Numbered from the stretch's first letter, positions 50,290-64,000 are shown. The stretch is DNA of 64,000 nt from Escherichia coli O157:H7 (GCF_013167455.1 NZ_CP038328.1); one strand, 5' to 3'. Translations and numbers: made by a program. The notes: generated by a model not told the origin, from the sequence alone.

Positions 50290-51132
50290 TTAGCCCTTCA
50301 CGCCACCGGCGGTCAAACCACTCTTAATAAAACGTTCCGAAAGCGCATACATAATCACCACCGGCAATGCGGTCACCAGCGAGGCCGCCATCATCCGTCC
50401 CCAGATGTAATCTGGCGTACTGAACAGCGCGTTCAGGCCGACTGGTAAGGTGAAATTGCTGGCGCTGGAGAGGAAAATCGACGCAAACAGATAGTCGTTC
50501 CATGCCACCATAAAGCAGTAGACGAATACGGATATCAGCCCGGACATCGCCAGGGGCACGGTGATACGGAAGATAATTTGCAGACGGTTGAGGCCATCCA
50601 TCATCGCCGCTTCTTCGATCTCATCAGGGATGGTGTCGAAGTAACTTTTCAGCATAAACACGGCGGTGGGCAGAGTTTGCGTCACCATGGTAATGATCAG
50701 CGCCATCTCGGTGTCGTAAATGCCAAGTGCGGTGATAATTTTGAACAGCGGCACCACCAGCAAAATGCCGGAGAACATATACACCGTGTAAAAGCTGGCG
50801 TTGATGGTCATCCGGCCTTTAAAGCGCAGGCGAGAAAGCGCGTAAGCTCCGAGAATGCCGAGAAATACCGCCACCACGGATGAAACCACCGACACCACCA
50901 TGCTGTTACGGAAGTAGTCGACAAACGGGAAAATCACCGGGTTAAAAATGTCGACATAATGCTCCAGCGTCCACTGTTGCGGCAGCAGCGTAGGATGCAG
51001 CGAGATCGCCTCTTTTGCGCTCTTGAACGAGGTCATCAGCATCACAAAAAACGGAAACAGCGTGATGATGAGAAACAGCGCCAGCCCGCGGTAAAAACCG
51101 ATACGACTGAGTGTGCGTTTATTTGTTGCCAT
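50290..51132 (-). CDS. ycjP: ABC transporter permease
   Basis: 280 aa; multi-TM; coupled to ycjO. Confidence 0.85.
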   Translation of the reverse strand: MATNKRTLSRIGFYRGLALFLIITLFPFFVMLMTSFKSAKEAISLHPTLLPQQWTLEHYVDIFNPVIFPFVDYFRNSMVVSVVSSVVAVFLGILGAYALSRLRFKGRMTINASFYTVYMFSGILLVVPLFKIITALGIYDTEMALIITMVTQTLPTAVFMLKSYFDTIPDEIEEAAMMDGLNRLQIIFRITVPLAMSGLISVFVYCFMVAWNDYLFASIFLSSASNFTLPVGLNALFSTPDYIWGRMMAASLVTALPVVIMYALSERFIKSGLTAGGVKG

Positions 51133-51760
51133 TGAGGTTCACCCGTTTCCTGGTCAGCAGAATGACAGCGAAAATAATGATGAAGAGCACCACCGAGATC
51201 GCCGCCGCTTTCCCTAAGTCATTAAAGGCAAAGGCGGTTTTGTAGAGATAGACACCAAGAATATCGACCTTGGTTGTCAGCAGATAAACATCCGCGAACA
51301 TGTAGAACATCCAGATGGTGCGAAGGGTCACCACCGTCGCCAGGACCGGCATAATCGCGGGCAGCGTGACGATACGAAACCGTTGCCAGGCATTAGCGCC
51401 ATCCATCTCTGCCGCTTCGTACAGCGATTTGTCGATGGTCTGCAAAATCGCCAGAAACGAGATAAAGGCATACGGGAAGTAGCGCCAGATGGCGAAGATC
51501 ACCACCAGCACAAAACTACTGCCCGGATTATCGAACCACAGCGGTGCCTGCTCATAAAGATGCAGAAGATCGACGCCGAGGTAGTTCACAATGCCGTAGC
51601 CGTTGTTGAACATGTATTTCCAGGCGAACACCAGCGAAATAGACGGCGTTACGTAGGAGAGGATCACCAGCGAACGCGCGGTTTTGCGCAGGCGGAACTC
51701 GCGGTTGAAAAACATCGCCACTGCCAGCCCGAGCACGGTGCTGCCCGCCACCACCAACGC
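51119..51760 (-). pseudogene. ycjO: ycjO ABC transporter permease, 5'-truncated by prophage insertion
   Basis: permease frame is open from the stop at 51119 up to ~51760, then phage-end sequence; no start codon or N-terminal segment present. Confidence 0.8.
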
Positions 51761-51777
51761 GTGTAACCAGGTGAATC

Positions 51778-51936
51778 ATTTGATACCGACAAGGGTTTTA
51801 GTGAAAGGAGGTGAAATCACCTGTAAGATGCTGAAATAAAACAGGTGATGTATACTTCGGACGGAAAACTCTTTTTGATACCGACTGCTCAACAAATAGT
51901 CAAAAGATCAAAAAACGGCGACACATTTGATACTGC
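51778..51936 (+). repeat. candidate transposase end-binding sites (attL-type direct repeats)
   Basis: TTTGATACCGAC at 51778 and 51873, TTTGATACTGC at 51925. Confidence 0.5.
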
Positions 51937-52117
51937 TAATTTACCCTTAAAATCTTCTTCAAAACATCTTCAAACTGCCAAAATGCTCACATAATCGATC
52001 TAACTATAATCAGTATGATAATCATCATGAATTACTATTCAATAGCGTGATTATCTTGGGATGAGTCATATGATCTCTATATGTATTTACAGCACCACCT
52101 CATGATAGCGATGGCGC

Positions 52118-52729
52118 TTAACCAACAACATTTTTCTTTACTGTCACTGCCCCTGATTCCTGGGTGGCGTTATTGCTCGAGTTGTACTTCTCAATAACGC
52201 GCAAAATCTCTTTGTCTGTTTCTTCACTTCCCGCCATTCCTATCTTTATTGCATTTTTTAGTACGGGACGTAATGGCAAGGCATCAATGATGCTTTCTAC
52301 CGCATCCTGGCTGATTGTAGATGTATTCATTGCTGCCAGCCTGACAAGGTTGTTAGTACCTTCTCGCCTGATGAATGTAAGGATTAATTGCTTCTCTTGG
52401 GGGCTTAGAGAGCTAAGCGCCTGATCAATACCCGAACCTGAATCGCAATTGTTTTCGATTTTTCCGCATTCATCTTCGTTCTTGCCTGTGGCCAACCATT
52501 CGAGTGAACAATTACAGGCTTTAGCTATTAAGGCCAGTTTATCCAAAGGAGGGAAGTTTTTCCCCTTCCTGTAATTTCTTACTGTGGCTTCAGATAGTCC
52601 ACAAAGGGTCGCCAGTTCGACGTTTGTCATGTTTCCCATAGCCATAGCTAAGCGTTCTGAAAATCGGTTTATTCCTTCCATATCAATAAACCGTTCCGCA
52701 CTGGATACGGTTTTTTCTGCCTTATCCAT
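52118..52729 (-). CDS. prophage repressor (Mu c position), XRE-type HTH
   Basis: 203 aa; HTH VELATLCGLSEATVRNYRKG; AGGGGG SD; leftward at prophage left end. Confidence 0.8.
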   Translation of the reverse strand: MDKAEKTVSSAERFIDMEGINRFSERLAMAMGNMTNVELATLCGLSEATVRNYRKGKNFPPLDKLALIAKACNCSLEWLATGKNEDECGKIENNCDSGSGIDQALSSLSPQEKQLILTFIRREGTNNLVRLAAMNTSTISQDAVESIIDALPLRPVLKNAIKIGMAGSEETDKEILRVIEKYNSSNNATQESGAVTVKKNVVG

Positions 52730-52885
52730 ATAACCCCCTATAAAACAAAGAAATTATCAACATCGCATTTAATTTCGATGTGCTCGCAAAAAACCGTTGA
52801 TATCGAATTATTTTGCGATTATGATTTACCTAAATCGATAACCGGTTTTGATTATCGGTTCAGGTAAACATGAGAGGATCACACA
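52730..52885. promoter_or_regulatory. repressor/ner divergent operator-promoter region
   Basis: repeated GATTAT/CGATAA motifs and inverted repeat CGATAA-N10-TTATCG between divergent regulators. Confidence 0.45.
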
Positions 52886-62488: not shown

Positions 62489-62989
62489 ATGCCAAAACTC
62501 CCCGCACCACTGCGTAAAAAGCTGATTGCCCTTGTTCTGGCCGGTGCCGGGACGTTCACGATTGCCACGCATTACACCGGTTACTGGGAAGGGAAAGAAA
62601 ACTCCACGTATATCGATCCCACCGGTACACCCACCATCTGTTACGGCCATACCGGCCCGGATGTGAAACCGGGTATGACCCTGACAGATGAAGAATGCCT
62701 GGAACTACTGGAAAAGGACATGAAATGGGCCTTTGCGGCCATTGATCGGCGTGTTCAGGTGCCGCTTACCCGTGGTCAGACGGTGGCGCTGGCTTCGTGG
62801 ATCTTCTGGGCCGGTGAAACGAACTTTCGCAACTCCACGCTTCTGCGCCTGATCAATGCCGGGCAGATGCCCGCGTCCTGTAAGCAGTATATCCGCTGGA
62901 TTTATTCAAAGGGGGTGAAACTCCCCGGCCTTGAGGCCCGCCGTTCGGCGGATGAATGGTTATGTCGCTACGACTTGCCGAAAGTCTGA
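62489..62989 (+). CDS. endolysin, T4-lysozyme-like (GH24) with N-terminal SAR-type signal anchor
   Basis: 166 aa; Gly/Ala-rich TM LIALVLAGAGTFTIATHY; catalytic-type motif WEGKENSTYIDPTGTPTICYGHTG. Confidence 0.85.
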   Translation: MPKLPAPLRKKLIALVLAGAGTFTIATHYTGYWEGKENSTYIDPTGTPTICYGHTGPDVKPGMTLTDEECLELLEKDMKWAFAAIDRRVQVPLTRGQTVALASWIFWAGETNFRNSTLLRLINAGQMPASCKQYIRWIYSKGVKLPGLEARRSADEWLCRYDLPKV

Positions 62990-63062
62990 ACCGCTTCTGG
63001 CGACCGCTCATGATAGCGCTGCTGTGTGCGGTACTGCTGTTACGGGGTGTCCTGTGGCTGCG

Positions 63063-63452
63063 GTGAATAATGCCTTACCGGCCCTGATTGCCGGGGCGTG
63101 CATGGCGGCGCTGGGGATTATCGCTGTACTGGTTGCCGCTATATGGGGAATGCACCAGAAGACGCAGCGCCTTGAAGACAATAATCAGGTGCTTGTGCGT
63201 GAGCGGGATGAGGCGCGTCAGGTGCTGGCAAATCAGCAGCACACCCTGCAACTCATTTCACAAATCAGTGAGGCGGCCACGAATGAAAAACAACAGAACA
63301 TTCAGCACAGCGAGGGGCAGCAGAGCGTTGTCCGCCGGTCGCTGGCGGCAGTGCCTGCGGCCTCTGCCCCTGTTCCTGATGATGTGGCTGATCGGGTGCG
63401 CCGGGCCGTCTGTGAAATACGTGCCTGTGAAGCCGGTGCCGATCCCCGCTGA
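63063..63452 (+). CDS. i-spanin (Rz-like)
   Basis: N-terminal TM ALPALIAGACMAALGIIAVLVAAIWG then coiled-coil-like periplasmic region; start uncertain (GTG 63063 or ATG ~63100). Confidence 0.5.
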   Translation: MNNALPALIAGACMAALGIIAVLVAAIWGMHQKTQRLEDNNQVLVRERDEARQVLANQQHTLQLISQISEAATNEKQQNIQHSEGQQSVVRRSLAAVPAASAPVPDDVADRVRRAVCEIRACEAGADPR

Positions 63453-63654
63453 ATGGCTGGCTGACTGCCTGGTCCCTCCTGCGCCGGAGCCGTTCACGTT
63501 TGGGGCATCGGTCACTTACAACCTGCAACTGCTGGCGGTGATCAAGAACTGCAACGTGGACAAGGCCAGTATTCGTCGTCTGGAGGCGCGGCGACAACAT
63601 GAATTTACTGATATGGCCGGAACGCCTGCTGTTCCGGCAGGAAAGACGAAGTAA
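63282..63654 (+). CDS. o-spanin (Rz1-like lipoprotein), overlapping i-spanin in another frame
   Basis: lipobox LIGC after hydrophobic stretch; Pro-rich mature region PVKPVPIPAEW...PPAPEP. Confidence 0.55.
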
Positions 63655-63664
63655 GGAAAAAGGT

Positions 63665-63892
63665 ATGGATGATTCAGATCGTGCTCAGGCTGTGATGGAG
63701 CGGGGATCAGAACGCGCCCTTTGTAACCGGCTGACACGTAAGCGCCGGGCAATGGATGCTCCGGGCAGACGTGTCTGCGCGGACTGTGGCGGAGAGATCC
63801 CCGCCGCACGTCTTGTTGCTGTGCCGGATGCCATCCGTTGTGTGAACTGCCAGAACATCATGGAGGCCCGTCATGTGGGTCAGCATCGTTAA
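63665..63892 (+). CDS. TraR/DksA-family C4 zinc-finger protein
   Basis: 75 aa from MDDSDRAQAV; CADCGGEI...CVNC; SD AGGAAAAAGG. Confidence 0.7.
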   Translation: MDDSDRAQAVMERGSERALCNRLTRKRRAMDAPGRRVCADCGGEIPAARLVAVPDAIRCVNCQNIMEARHVGQHR

Positions 63893-64000
63893 AGATTATG
63901 TTGTGCCGATCCTTTCGGCGACGGCAACCGCTGGCGGGATATTCATGGCGCTGATGCGCAAAACGTTTGTCCCCCGCGAGGCCTTTGAAAAACTCTCCGA
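63873..64000 (+). CDS. hypothetical protein, N-terminal part only (runs off window end)
   Basis: ATG 63873 overlapping upstream stop; MWVSIVKDYVVPILSATATAGGIFMALMRK... Confidence 0.4.
   Translation, partial: MWVSIVKDYVVPILSATATAGGIFMALMRKTFVPREAFEKLS

What the first reader, a model, noticed from the sequence alone, without database searches (positions are those of the whole stretch)
51119..64000. Mu-like transposable prophage inserted inside ycjO, cutting the ycj sugar-utilisation cluster
The ycjO permease frame (minus strand) is intact from its stop up to about 51760 and then ends abruptly. From about 51762 a phage end starts (TGTAACCAGGTGAATCATTTGATACCGAC) with three direct repeats of TTTGATAC(C/T)G at 51778, 51873 and 51925, as expected for transposase binding sites at a Mu-type left end. 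Behind it lie, in Mu order, a leftward repressor, a Ner-like gene, a 696-aa DDE transposase, an AAA+ B-like ATPase, a block of small early genes, Gam, GemA-like, Mor-like, a SAR endolysin, overlapped spanins and a TraR-like zinc finger. Gam and B resemble Mu closely; the repressor and the end sequences do not match Mu as I remember it, so this looks like a distinct Mu relative. The insertion separates ycjO-ycjV from the upstream part of the cluster, and leftward repressor transcription could read into ycjO'-ycjP.
Basis: partly seen in the sequence, partly recalled or inferred. Interest (0 to 1): 0.7.

Follow-up and report, generated by a model that had tools for sequence, protein, structure and literature searches.

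The report
Sp18-type Mu-like prophage in ycjO

Summary
Host ycjO, identical to intact O157:H7 ycjO, stops at 51761. At 51762 begins the left end (TGTAACCAGG...) of a Mu-like prophage, with three transposase-site motifs, a leftward repressor, and then Ner, a DDE transposase, a MuB-like ATPase, Kil, Gam, GemA, a Mor/C activator, a SAR endolysin, spanins and TraR.

The element is not new. It belongs to the Sp18 family (O157 Sakai, 97% identical from 53289 onward). That backbone is in 248 of 5,426 complete E. coli genomes, at many different sites. This copy carries a different immunity module (repressor, Ner, first ~60 residues of the transposase), which 35 complete genomes share. The pattern parallels Mu versus D108.

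The window comes from the draft GCA_000335195.2. The matching right junction turned up in two sister assemblies, with a 4-bp duplication (CGCG). It could not be retrieved from the source contig itself.

The right end finishes ...CTATA, not ...CA. The duplication is 4 bp in 8 of 8 simple insertions, not 5 bp.

Cutting the ycj operon probably costs little, because ycjM and ycjN are already pseudogenes in the O157:H7 relatives examined. Repressor read-through into ycjO' is geometrically possible but untested.

The parts
51119..51761 (-). ycjO' : 3' fragment of the ABC-permease gene ycjO (codons 82-293 plus stop), cut off from its start and first 81 codons
   Evidence: Identical to L004 1375-2017 of intact O157:H7 ycjO. 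Pfam BPD_transp_1 in the source contig's annotation.
51758..51761 (.). CGCG: left copy of the 4-bp target-site duplication
   Evidence: Window ...AACGCG|TGTAACC. Sister assemblies ...GCGCTATA|CGCGGTATACC. Intact site ...AACGCGGTATACC.
51762..51935 (+). Left end (attL) of the prophage: terminus TGTAACCAGG... and three inward-pointing candidate transposase-binding sites, TTTGATACYG at 51779-51788 (L1), 51874-51883 (L2) and 51926-51935 (L3)
   Evidence: Phage matches in other genomes begin at 51762. Motif statistics. The same motif lies 18, 40 and 75 nt from the right terminus in relatives. The spacing 18/113/165 resembles Mu L1, L2-L3 (own knowledge).
52118..52729 (-). Repressor (203 aa), lambda-CI/Xre-type HTH, transcribed leftward toward the phage end and ycjO'
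   Evidence: phrog_3037 3e-59. Pfam Phage_CI_repr and HTH_3. No hit to Mu c. 26% identical to the Sp18 repressor.
52730..52885 (.). Divergent regulatory region between the repressor gene and ner, with an inverted repeat at 52825-52841 / 52852-52868 and a sigma70-like promoter at 52797-52825 (+). Candidate operators and early promoter.
   Evidence: Function is inferred from position only.
52886..53152 (+). Ner-like early repressor (88 aa)
   Evidence: phrog_769 2.5e-28. Pfam HTH_35. 37.5% identical to Mu Ner.
53163..55253 (+). Transposase A (696 aa), DDE/RNase H-like, with a Mu-type N-terminal DNA-binding domain and a Mu transposase C-terminal domain
   Evidence: phrog_310 1e-209. Pfam HTH_Tnp_Mu_1 and Mu-transpos_C. 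D309 and D375 align with MuA D269 and D336. E415 assigned by motif. 94% identical to the Sp18 transposase, with the differences in the first ~60 residues.
55325..56257 (+). MuB-like AAA+ target-capture ATPase (310 aa)
   Evidence: phrog_296 1e-109. Pfam AAA_22 plus Phage-MuB_C. 48.7% identical to MuB and 99.4% to Sp18 B.
56254..57598 (+). Five small early genes, including a Kil-family gene (56494-56748) and a gene of the family PHROGs labels 'host nuclease inhibitor' (56750-57031)
57610..58140 (+). Gam (176 aa), protects DNA ends
   Evidence: phrog_491 3.5e-70. 57% identical to Mu Gam.
58238..61416 (+). Semi-essential early region: homologues of Mu gp11 (58784-59317) and gp12 (59317-59832), a D5-like/gp9-like regulator (59836-60387), and small genes of unknown function
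   Evidence: All fall in existing PHROG families.
61413..61922 (+). GemA/gp16 family protein (169 aa)
   Evidence: phrog_286. Pfam GemA. 43% identical to Mu GemA.
61992..62417 (+). Single Mor/C-family transcription activator (141 aa)
   Evidence: phrog_532 3e-45. 38.7% identical to Mu C and 26.8% to Mu Mor.
62489..62989 (+). Endolysin (166 aa) with an N-terminal Gly/Ala-rich signal-anchor-release-like segment and the E-8-D-5-T lysozyme triad starting at E34
   Evidence: phrog_7. Sequence read. 39% identical to the Mu endolysin.
63024..63654 (+). Spanin pair: Rz-like i-spanin (63024-63452) and an overlapping LysC/Rz1-like o-spanin in another frame (annotated 63412-63654). A lipobox LIGC lies just upstream of that start, so the true start is uncertain.
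   Evidence: phrog_214. PGAP lysC and Pfam LysC on identical proteins in relatives. Translations.
63665..63892 (+). TraR/DksA-type zinc-finger protein (75 aa)
   Evidence: phrog_54 1e-19. PGAP annotation of the identical protein in relatives.
63873..64000 (+). Start of a DUF2730 (Mu gp25-like) gene, cut by the end of the window. About 26.7 kb more of the prophage (head, tail, invertible tail-fibre segment, com/mom, right end) lies beyond the window.
   Evidence: Gene order in the full-length relatives L001, L011, L012 and L013.

Best explanation
The region 51762-64000 is the left third of a ~39-kb transposable (Mu-type) temperate phage of the Sp18 family. It integrated by DDE transposition into codon 81/82 of ycjO in an E. 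coli O157:H7 strain (draft GCA_000335195.2, contig AOET01000052.1). How it works, inferred by homology with Mu: the leftward CI-type repressor keeps the rightward early operon (ner, A, B, kil, gam...) silent. On induction, transposase A binds the three TTTGATACYG-type sites at each end, and the MuB-like ATPase delivers target DNA. The genome replicates by repeated transposition. A single Mor/C-type activator then switches on lysis (SAR endolysin and spanins) and the morphogenesis genes. Shown here: the exact junction, the gene content, family membership, insertion at many different sites in other genomes, and the complementary right junction with a 4-bp duplication in sister assemblies. Inferred: the regulatory logic, the assignment of the repeats as transposase sites, and current mobility of this particular copy.
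For: The junction is exact to the base against intact ycjO. The element boundary is the same in hundreds of other copies. All Mu hallmark proteins are present in Mu order. The region from 53289 onward is 97% identical to Sakai Sp18, and the whole 12.2 kb is 98.6% identical to full-length copies in EH031 and Show KS 470-1. The backbone occurs in 248 of 5,426 complete genomes, inside etk, betT, siiEA, ydeE, sorM, Stx phages, a plasmid and other sites. This fits the published description of Sp18-like phages as transposable, variably located and efficiently packaged (PMC10132054, PMC2669165, PMC7430833). The right junction ...GCGCTATA|CGCGGTATACC occurs in GCA_000335015.2 and SRR537018, exactly complementary to the window's left junction. 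The end motifs lie 18 nt from both termini.
Against: The right end was not seen in the window's own assembly. The predicted fusion products are not on record for that contig. A related assembly with the same insertion has lost the right end through a 1,029-bp deletion. This copy may therefore be immobile. No experiment shows induction, and Sp18 itself is not mitomycin-inducible (PMC2669165). DDE residue E415 rests on a motif, not on the alignment.
Confidence: 0.93

Rival explanations
1. The prophage in this particular strain is 'grounded'. It has the intact left end and early genes seen in the window but has lost its right end (and mom), so it can no longer transpose or replicate as a phage.
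For: GCA_029717165.1 (L037, plus 3 similar places) carries the same ycjO-side insertion with a 1,029-bp deletion. The deletion removes most of mom, the right terminus and ycjO codons 11-81. The fusion ORF annotated in the sister assembly (ELV58760.1) is not on record for the window's source contig, although both assemblies appear to have been annotated the same way.
Against: A missing record is weak evidence, since a single SNP in the 107-aa product would also hide it. Two assemblies of the same insertion (AOEF01000080.1 and SRR537018) keep the right end. All ORFs in the window are intact.
Confidence: 0.3
2. The junction at 51761/51762 is an assembly artefact that joins ycjO to a Mu-like prophage located elsewhere in the genome.
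For: The source is a draft assembly, and no complete genome in the collection has this junction.
Against: The break falls exactly at the element's terminal base. The reciprocal junction, with the matching 4-bp duplication, is present in an independent NCBI assembly and in an independent Logan assembly of raw reads. A chimeric join would not reproduce both precise ends.
Confidence: 0.02
3. Transcription from the repressor promoter reads out of the left end and drives ycjO'-ycjP-ycjQ... expression in lysogens, giving the insertion a regulatory effect on the distal ycj genes.
For: The repressor gene and ycjO' are on the same strand, 356 bp apart. No canonical intrinsic terminator was found between them. 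The only hairpins lack a U-tract or have a 16-nt loop, and the fold is no more stable than shuffles (z = -0.22).
Against: There are no expression data. Rho-dependent termination in the 356-bp untranslated stretch and in the untranslatable ycjO' fragment is likely (inference). The operon's first genes, ycjM and ycjN, are already pseudogenes in this lineage, so the pathway is probably not functional anyway.
Confidence: 0.15

Closest known systems
Prophage Sp18 of E. coli O157:H7 Sakai (NC_002695.2 5040971-5079729) and the 'Sp18-like Mu-like phages' of STEC (Asadulghani et al. 2009, PMC2669165; Nakamura et al. 2023, PMC10132054; GenBank LC727881/LC727895)
   Same: 97.0% nucleotide identity over window 53289-64000, with the same gene order. 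B is 99.4% identical and A 94%. The termini are the same (TGTAACCAGG... / ...GCCGCGCTATA), as are the end motifs and the 4-bp duplication.
   Different: The immunity module differs. 51937-53288 has no nucleotide similarity to Sp18, the repressor is 203 aa against 176 aa (26% identity), Ner is 39% identical, and the first ~60 residues of the transposase diverge. The leftmost 175 bp are only 81% identical. The insertion site also differs (ycjO here, sorM in Sakai).
Near-identical annotated copies in complete genomes, e.g. E. coli EH031 (NZ_AP027162.1, in etk) and O157:H7 Show KS 470-1 (NZ_CP038309.1, in betT)
   Same: 98.6-99.3% identity over the whole 12.2 kb, including the immunity module. The repressor, Ner, B, Gam and lysis proteins are the same. 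This immunity type is in 35 of 5,426 complete genomes.
   Different: Only the insertion site and scattered SNPs differ. The GemA and 98-aa ORF variants of the window are not identical to those copies.
Bacteriophage Mu (NC_000929)
   Same: Same overall architecture: a leftward repressor, then ner-A-B-kil...gam...gemA-activator-lys, three transposase sites per end with L1 set apart from L2-L3, an invertible tail-fibre segment with an invertase, and com/mom in full-length relatives. Late genes are ~65-73% identical at nucleotide level.
   Different: The transposase is only 22.6% identical and the repressor belongs to a different family (CI/HTH_3, not Mu c). There is one Mor/C activator instead of Mor plus C. 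The end sequences are unrelated, the right terminus is TA-3' instead of CA-3', and the target duplication is 4 bp instead of 5 bp (5 bp for Mu from PMC8705779).
The Mu / D108 heteroimmune pair (own knowledge)
   Same: Two otherwise nearly identical transposable phages that differ in the block made of repressor, ner and the N-terminus of the transposase. This is exactly the pattern between this prophage and Sp18.
   Different: This is an analogy only. D108 was not compared here. Other members of the family carry Mu-c-like repressors (Pfam HTH_Tnp_Mu_1, 168-172 aa) or a 213-aa HTH repressor, so there are at least four immunity types.
Yersinia phages vB_YpM_5/6, Klebsiella phage Kp4866-3, Haemophilus phage SuMu
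   Same: These hold the closest isolated-phage transposases: 78%, 58% and 43% amino-acid identity.
   Different: There is no extended nucleotide similarity outside the A gene.

Membership tests
Transposable (Mu-like) phages | DDE transposase of the MuA type | tested here: met
   Pfam Mu-transpos_C 3.5e-17 and HTH_Tnp_Mu_1 1e-4. phrog_310 1e-209. D309 and D375 align with MuA D269 and D336, and E415 is assigned by motif.
Transposable (Mu-like) phages | MuB-type AAA+ transposition ATPase next to the transposase | tested here: met
   Pfam Phage-MuB_C 5e-25 plus AAA_22. 48.7% identical to MuB.
Transposable (Mu-like) phages | Insertion at essentially random sites, flanked by a short target duplication | tested here: met
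   Copies lie in etk, betT, siiEA, ydeE, sorM, an intergenic site, Stx phages, a plasmid and ycjO. The duplication is 4 bp in 8 of 8 simple insertions. The length differs from Mu (5 bp).
Transposable (Mu-like) phages | Terminal repeated transposase-binding sites at both ends in inverted orientation | tested here: met
   TTTGATACYR lies 18/113/165 nt from the left terminus and 18/40/75 nt from the right terminus, all pointing inward. Binding itself was not tested.
Transposable (Mu-like) phages | Terminal 5'-TG...CA-3' dinucleotides | tested here: not met
   The left end is TG..., but the right end is ...TA-3' in every copy read. This is a family-level departure from Mu, not a defect of this copy.
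Transposable (Mu-like) phages | Replication by transposition and packaging with variable host flanks | not testable with these tools
   Published for Sp18: its DNA is not circularised and is efficiently packaged (PMC2669165). Not tested for this copy.
Sp18 family (E. coli Mu-like prophages) | High nucleotide identity and synteny with Sp18 outside the immunity region, and identical termini | tested here: met
   97.0% identity over 10.7 kb. The termini and end motifs are the same.
Sp18 family (E. coli Mu-like prophages) | Same immunity (repressor/operator) as Sp18 | tested here: not met
   The repressor is 26% identical and Ner 39%, with no DNA similarity over 51937-53288. This copy is therefore presumably heteroimmune to Sp18.
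Genus Muvirus (Mu, D108) | Close nucleotide relationship to Mu across the genome | tested here: not met
   Megablast finds no Mu match. blastn gives only patchy 64-73% identity. The transposase is 22.6% identical.
Complete prophage in this strain | Right end present and joined to the other half of ycjO in the same assembly | tested here: inconclusive
   Found in the sister assemblies AOEF01000080.1 and SRR537018. Not retrievable for AOET01000052.1, because the look-ups were exhausted. A derivative with the right end deleted exists.

The most novel reading that the evidence does not exclude
The Sp18 family may be a mechanistic variant of Mu-type transposition. Its transposase (23% identical to MuA) uses a right terminus ending TA-3' instead of the canonical CA-3', and it makes a 4-bp rather than a 5-bp (Mu) or 6-bp (B3) target duplication. 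The family also swaps immunity modules in which the transposase N-terminus co-varies with repressors of unrelated folds (CI-type HTH here, Mu-c-like in other members). The 4-bp duplication is annotated in one GenBank record (LC727895). I found no open-access paper that states or analyses it.
Probability: 0.5. Interest if true: 0.35.

Novelty: already known. Interest (0 to 1): 0.15.

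Why it matters
It matters little beyond correct annotation. The region should be labelled an Sp18-type transposable prophage carrying an alternative immunity module, and ycjO a phage-disrupted pseudogene. 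The insertion serves as a lineage marker for a small O157:H7 clade (99.1793, SRR537018, GCA_029717165.1 and the source strain). One branch of that clade has since immobilised the prophage by deleting its right end. It probably has no metabolic consequence, because ycjM and ycjN are already inactivated in the O157:H7 relatives examined. The one point of wider interest is the consistent 4-bp duplication and TA-3' right terminus of this family. These would be worth a biochemical look by people who study Mu transpososomes.

Tried and rejected
(1) I predicted the YcjO(1-81)/phage read-through proteins and looked them up to find the right junction. The 117-aa and 102-aa versions (4-bp duplication) were not on record.

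(2) The 82-aa version (5-bp duplication) gave 209 blocks. These proved to be ycjO genes of other E. coli cut at contig ends by a C/T polymorphism, so it was a false lead.

(3) A homology search with the predicted fusion protein then found the real protein (ELV58760.1, one residue different) in a sister assembly.

(4) Walking along the source contig with the window's GemA variant failed, because that exact protein is in 2,403 blocks.

(5) Look-ups with the variable DUF6645 protein, a 96-aa ORF predicted for the deletion junction, and a ycjM fragment did not bring up contig AOET01000052.1.

(6) A 5-bp duplication was considered for the family and rejected. Counting the terminal T or A as host DNA fits only 1-2 of 8 insertions on either side, which is chance level.

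(7) Right-end windows for strains DLI.5a and AST198 missed the end. The DLI.5a flanking genes suggest a truncated copy. The strain 142 copy has unrelated flanks (ISEc8 on one side, a polyketide-synthase gene on the other) and was excluded as rearranged.

(8) A search for a terminator between the repressor gene and the left end found none that was convincing.

(9) Rfam found no RNA family inside the prophage part of the window.

Full report
**Observation**

On the minus strand, 51119-51761 is identical to the last 643 nt of intact ycjO of O157:H7 strain 86-24. Intact ycjO reads ...CCACCAACGCG-GTATACCAGACC, and the window reads ...CCACCAACGCG-TGTAACCAGGTG. The host therefore ends at 51761 and foreign DNA starts at 51762.

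I searched 50800-52800 against 5,426 complete E. coli genomes. The phage half matches many genomes, and those matches start at 51762 or 1-4 nt earlier by chance. None starts later, and no genome carries the junction itself.

The whole window has 4 matches against 0.28 expected by chance.

**Gene content**

- The repressor matches phrog_3037 and Pfam Phage_CI_repr/HTH_3.
- Ner matches phrog_769 and Pfam HTH_35.
- The 696-aa transposase matches phrog_310 at 1e-209 and Pfam Mu-transpos_C plus HTH_Tnp_Mu_1.
- The B ATPase matches phrog_296 and Pfam Phage-MuB_C.
- Kil, Gam, GemA, a Mor/C-family activator, an endolysin, an Rz-like spanin with an overlapping LysC-type partner, and a TraR/DksA zinc finger are all supported.

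Transposase residues D309 and D375 align with MuA D269 and D336. E415 is assigned from the conserved 'IIER' motif. The endolysin has a Gly/Ala-rich N-terminal segment and the E-8-D-5-T triad, which fits a SAR endolysin.

**Relation to Mu**

Amino-acid identities to Mu are as follows:

| Protein | Identity to Mu |
|---|---|
| gp11 | 67% |
| Gam | 57% |
| gp12 | 54% |
| B | 49% |
| GemA | 43% |
| endolysin | 39% |
| Ner | 37.5% |
| A (transposase) | 23% |
| c (repressor) | no hit |

The single activator is closer to Mu C (39%) than to Mor (27%). Megablast finds no Mu match. The element is a Mu-type phage but not a Muvirus.

**What it is**

The host flank is 100% identical to many O157:H7 genomes. 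The 12.2 kb of phage is 98.6-99.3% identical to annotated full-length (38.8-39.0 kb) prophages in complete genomes such as EH031 (inside etk) and Show KS 470-1 (inside betT). The backbone is present in 248 of 5,426 complete genomes at many different loci and once on a plasmid.

Against Sakai prophage Sp18, the window is 97.0% identical from 53289 to 64000. In contrast, 51937-53288 shows no DNA similarity. The repressors are 26% identical, the Ner proteins 39%, and the transposases differ mainly in their first ~60 residues. B is 99.4% identical. This is the same pattern that separates Mu from D108 (own knowledge), so the copy is an Sp18-family phage with an alternative, presumably heteroimmune, control module.

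That module occurs in 35 complete genomes. Other family members carry 168-172-aa Mu-c-like repressors or a 213-aa HTH repressor.

The literature already describes Sp18-like Mu-like phages as intact, packaged, not mitomycin-inducible, and variably located in STEC genomes, including inside Stx phages (PMC2669165, PMC7430833, PMC10132054).

**Source and right junction**

An exact-protein look-up of the truncated YcjO' identified the source as NCBI GCA_000335195.2, contig AOET01000052.1. Its reverse complement is identical to window 41119-61757.

The right end lies about 26.7 kb beyond the window. I predicted the fusion ORF expected at the other junction and searched for it by homology. This found ELV58760.1 in the sister assembly GCA_000335015.2 (E. 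coli 99.1793), and the same ORF in a Logan assembly of SRR537018.

Both read ...AATCGGTATCAAAAAAATCGCCGCGCTATA|CGCGGTATACCAGACC..., with mom and com just inside the junction. Together with the window's left junction and the intact site, this is one insertion event with CGCG duplicated.

A further relative, GCA_029717165.1, has the same insertion but carries a 1,029-bp deletion. The deletion removes most of mom, the right terminus and ycjO codons 11-81.

I could not determine which of the two states the window's own strain has.

**Ends and duplication in the family**

Seven simple insertions read in complete records have termini TGTAACC...GCGCTATA and a 4-bp duplication: CATA, AGAG, CAAC, CCTT, CACC, TAAA (Sp18 itself) and ACTA. 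The ycjO insertion is an eighth case.

Treating the terminal T or A as host DNA to obtain 5 bp works in only 1-2 of the 8 cases on either side, which is chance level. The right terminus is TA-3', not CA-3'.

The TTTGATACYR motif lies 18, 113 and 165 nt from the left terminus and 18, 40 and 75 nt from the right one, always pointing inward. This mirrors the Mu L1/L2-L3 and R1-R3 layout (Mu layout from own knowledge).

Published duplications are 5 bp for Mu and 6 bp for B3 (PMC8705779). I found no open-access paper that reports 4 bp for this family, although GenBank LC727895 annotates a 4-bp duplication.

**Consequence for the host**

The insertion does separate ycjO'-ycjP-...-ycjV from ycjM-ycjN. 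However, in 86-24, 99.1793, SRR537018 and another O157:H7 draft, ycjM is frameshifted and ycjN has an internal stop. The operon was therefore already decaying.

The repressor gene points toward ycjO', and no convincing intrinsic terminator lies between them. Read-through cannot be excluded, but nothing supports it either.

**Verdict**

The element is an already known and common kind of prophage, and only its insertion site is particular to this small clade. The one modestly unusual point is a property of the family rather than of this copy: a 4-bp duplication and a TA-3' right end.

Noticed in passing
L032 9465-10493 versus L037 (GCA_029717165.1); corresponds to the prophage right end beyond window 64000: A relative with the same ycjO insertion has a 1,029-bp deletion running from just after com (inside mom) to ycjO codon 11. 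It removes the phage's right terminus, so the prophage is immobilised in that branch. Three further similar contigs were not shown.
   Followed up: partly
Family level: L001, L002, L011, L012, L013, L014/L015, L043/L044, L027: Sp18-family insertions are flanked by a 4-bp, not 5-bp, duplication, and the right terminus ends TA-3' rather than CA-3'. I found no open-access paper that mentions this. GenBank LC727895 annotates the 4-bp repeat.
   Followed up: partly
L017-L026, left 1.8 kb of each locus: The same phage backbone carries at least four different repressor types: 168-172 aa with a Mu-c-like HTH_Tnp_Mu_1 domain, 176 aa (Sp18), 203 aa CI-type (this window), and 213 aa HTH_31/HTH_3. The transposase is 694 or 696 aa accordingly. 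Immunity modules are exchanged together with the transposase N-terminus.
   Followed up: partly
ycjO codons ~82-86 (window about 51745-51761; proteins P0024-P0037): Many unrelated public assemblies have frameshifted or internally deleted ycjO variants that break right after ...WYTAL, in the GTGGTGGCGGGC stretch. Many metagenome contigs also end there at a C/T polymorphism. The spot is locally unstable or polymorphic, independent of the phage.
   Followed up: no
L004 2277-5261 (O157:H7 86-24); also L027, L028, L039: ycjN (internal stop) and ycjM (frameshift) are pseudogenes in the O157:H7 genomes examined, so the ycj sugar pathway was already disabled upstream of the insertion.
   Followed up: partly
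L041/L042 (E. coli strain 142, NZ_CP028609.1): One full-length copy has an ISEc8 transposase fragment at its left flank and a polyketide-synthase (irp1-like) fragment at its right flank, with no duplication. This suggests a rearrangement, by phage or IS, after insertion.
   Followed up: no
L001 19390-19469 and the same place in L011-L013 (outside the window): PGAP annotates an 80-nt 'tRNA-OTHER' on the opposite strand, between the head morphogenesis gene (MuF-like) and the virion morphogenesis gene of the prophage. Its nature was not examined.
   Followed up: no
L029 12453-14492 and equivalents in L001, L011-L013 (outside the window): A 672-679-aa SASA/DUF6645 protein between the invertase and com differs in sequence in nearly every copy examined, while the rest of the phage is ~99% identical. 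It is a hypervariable accessory gene.
   Followed up: no
window 63283-63654: The annotated start of the LysC/Rz1-like o-spanin (63412) lies just after a perfect lipobox (LIGC) in the same frame. The real start is probably upstream (MKNNR...), inside the Rz gene.
   Followed up: no
window 4755-5220 and 10069-10247: Rfam finds DicF, isrK, C4 antisense RNA and the RalA antitoxin sRNA. These mark a second, lambdoid or Rac-like, prophage region at the start of the window.
   Followed up: no
window 23133-23249: There is an ALIL frameshifting pseudoknot (Rfam RF01497, 121 bits), which marks an IS3-family insertion sequence at about 22.8-24.1 kb. FnrS (14557-14674) and McaS (18052-18147) sRNAs are also present.
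   Followed up: no
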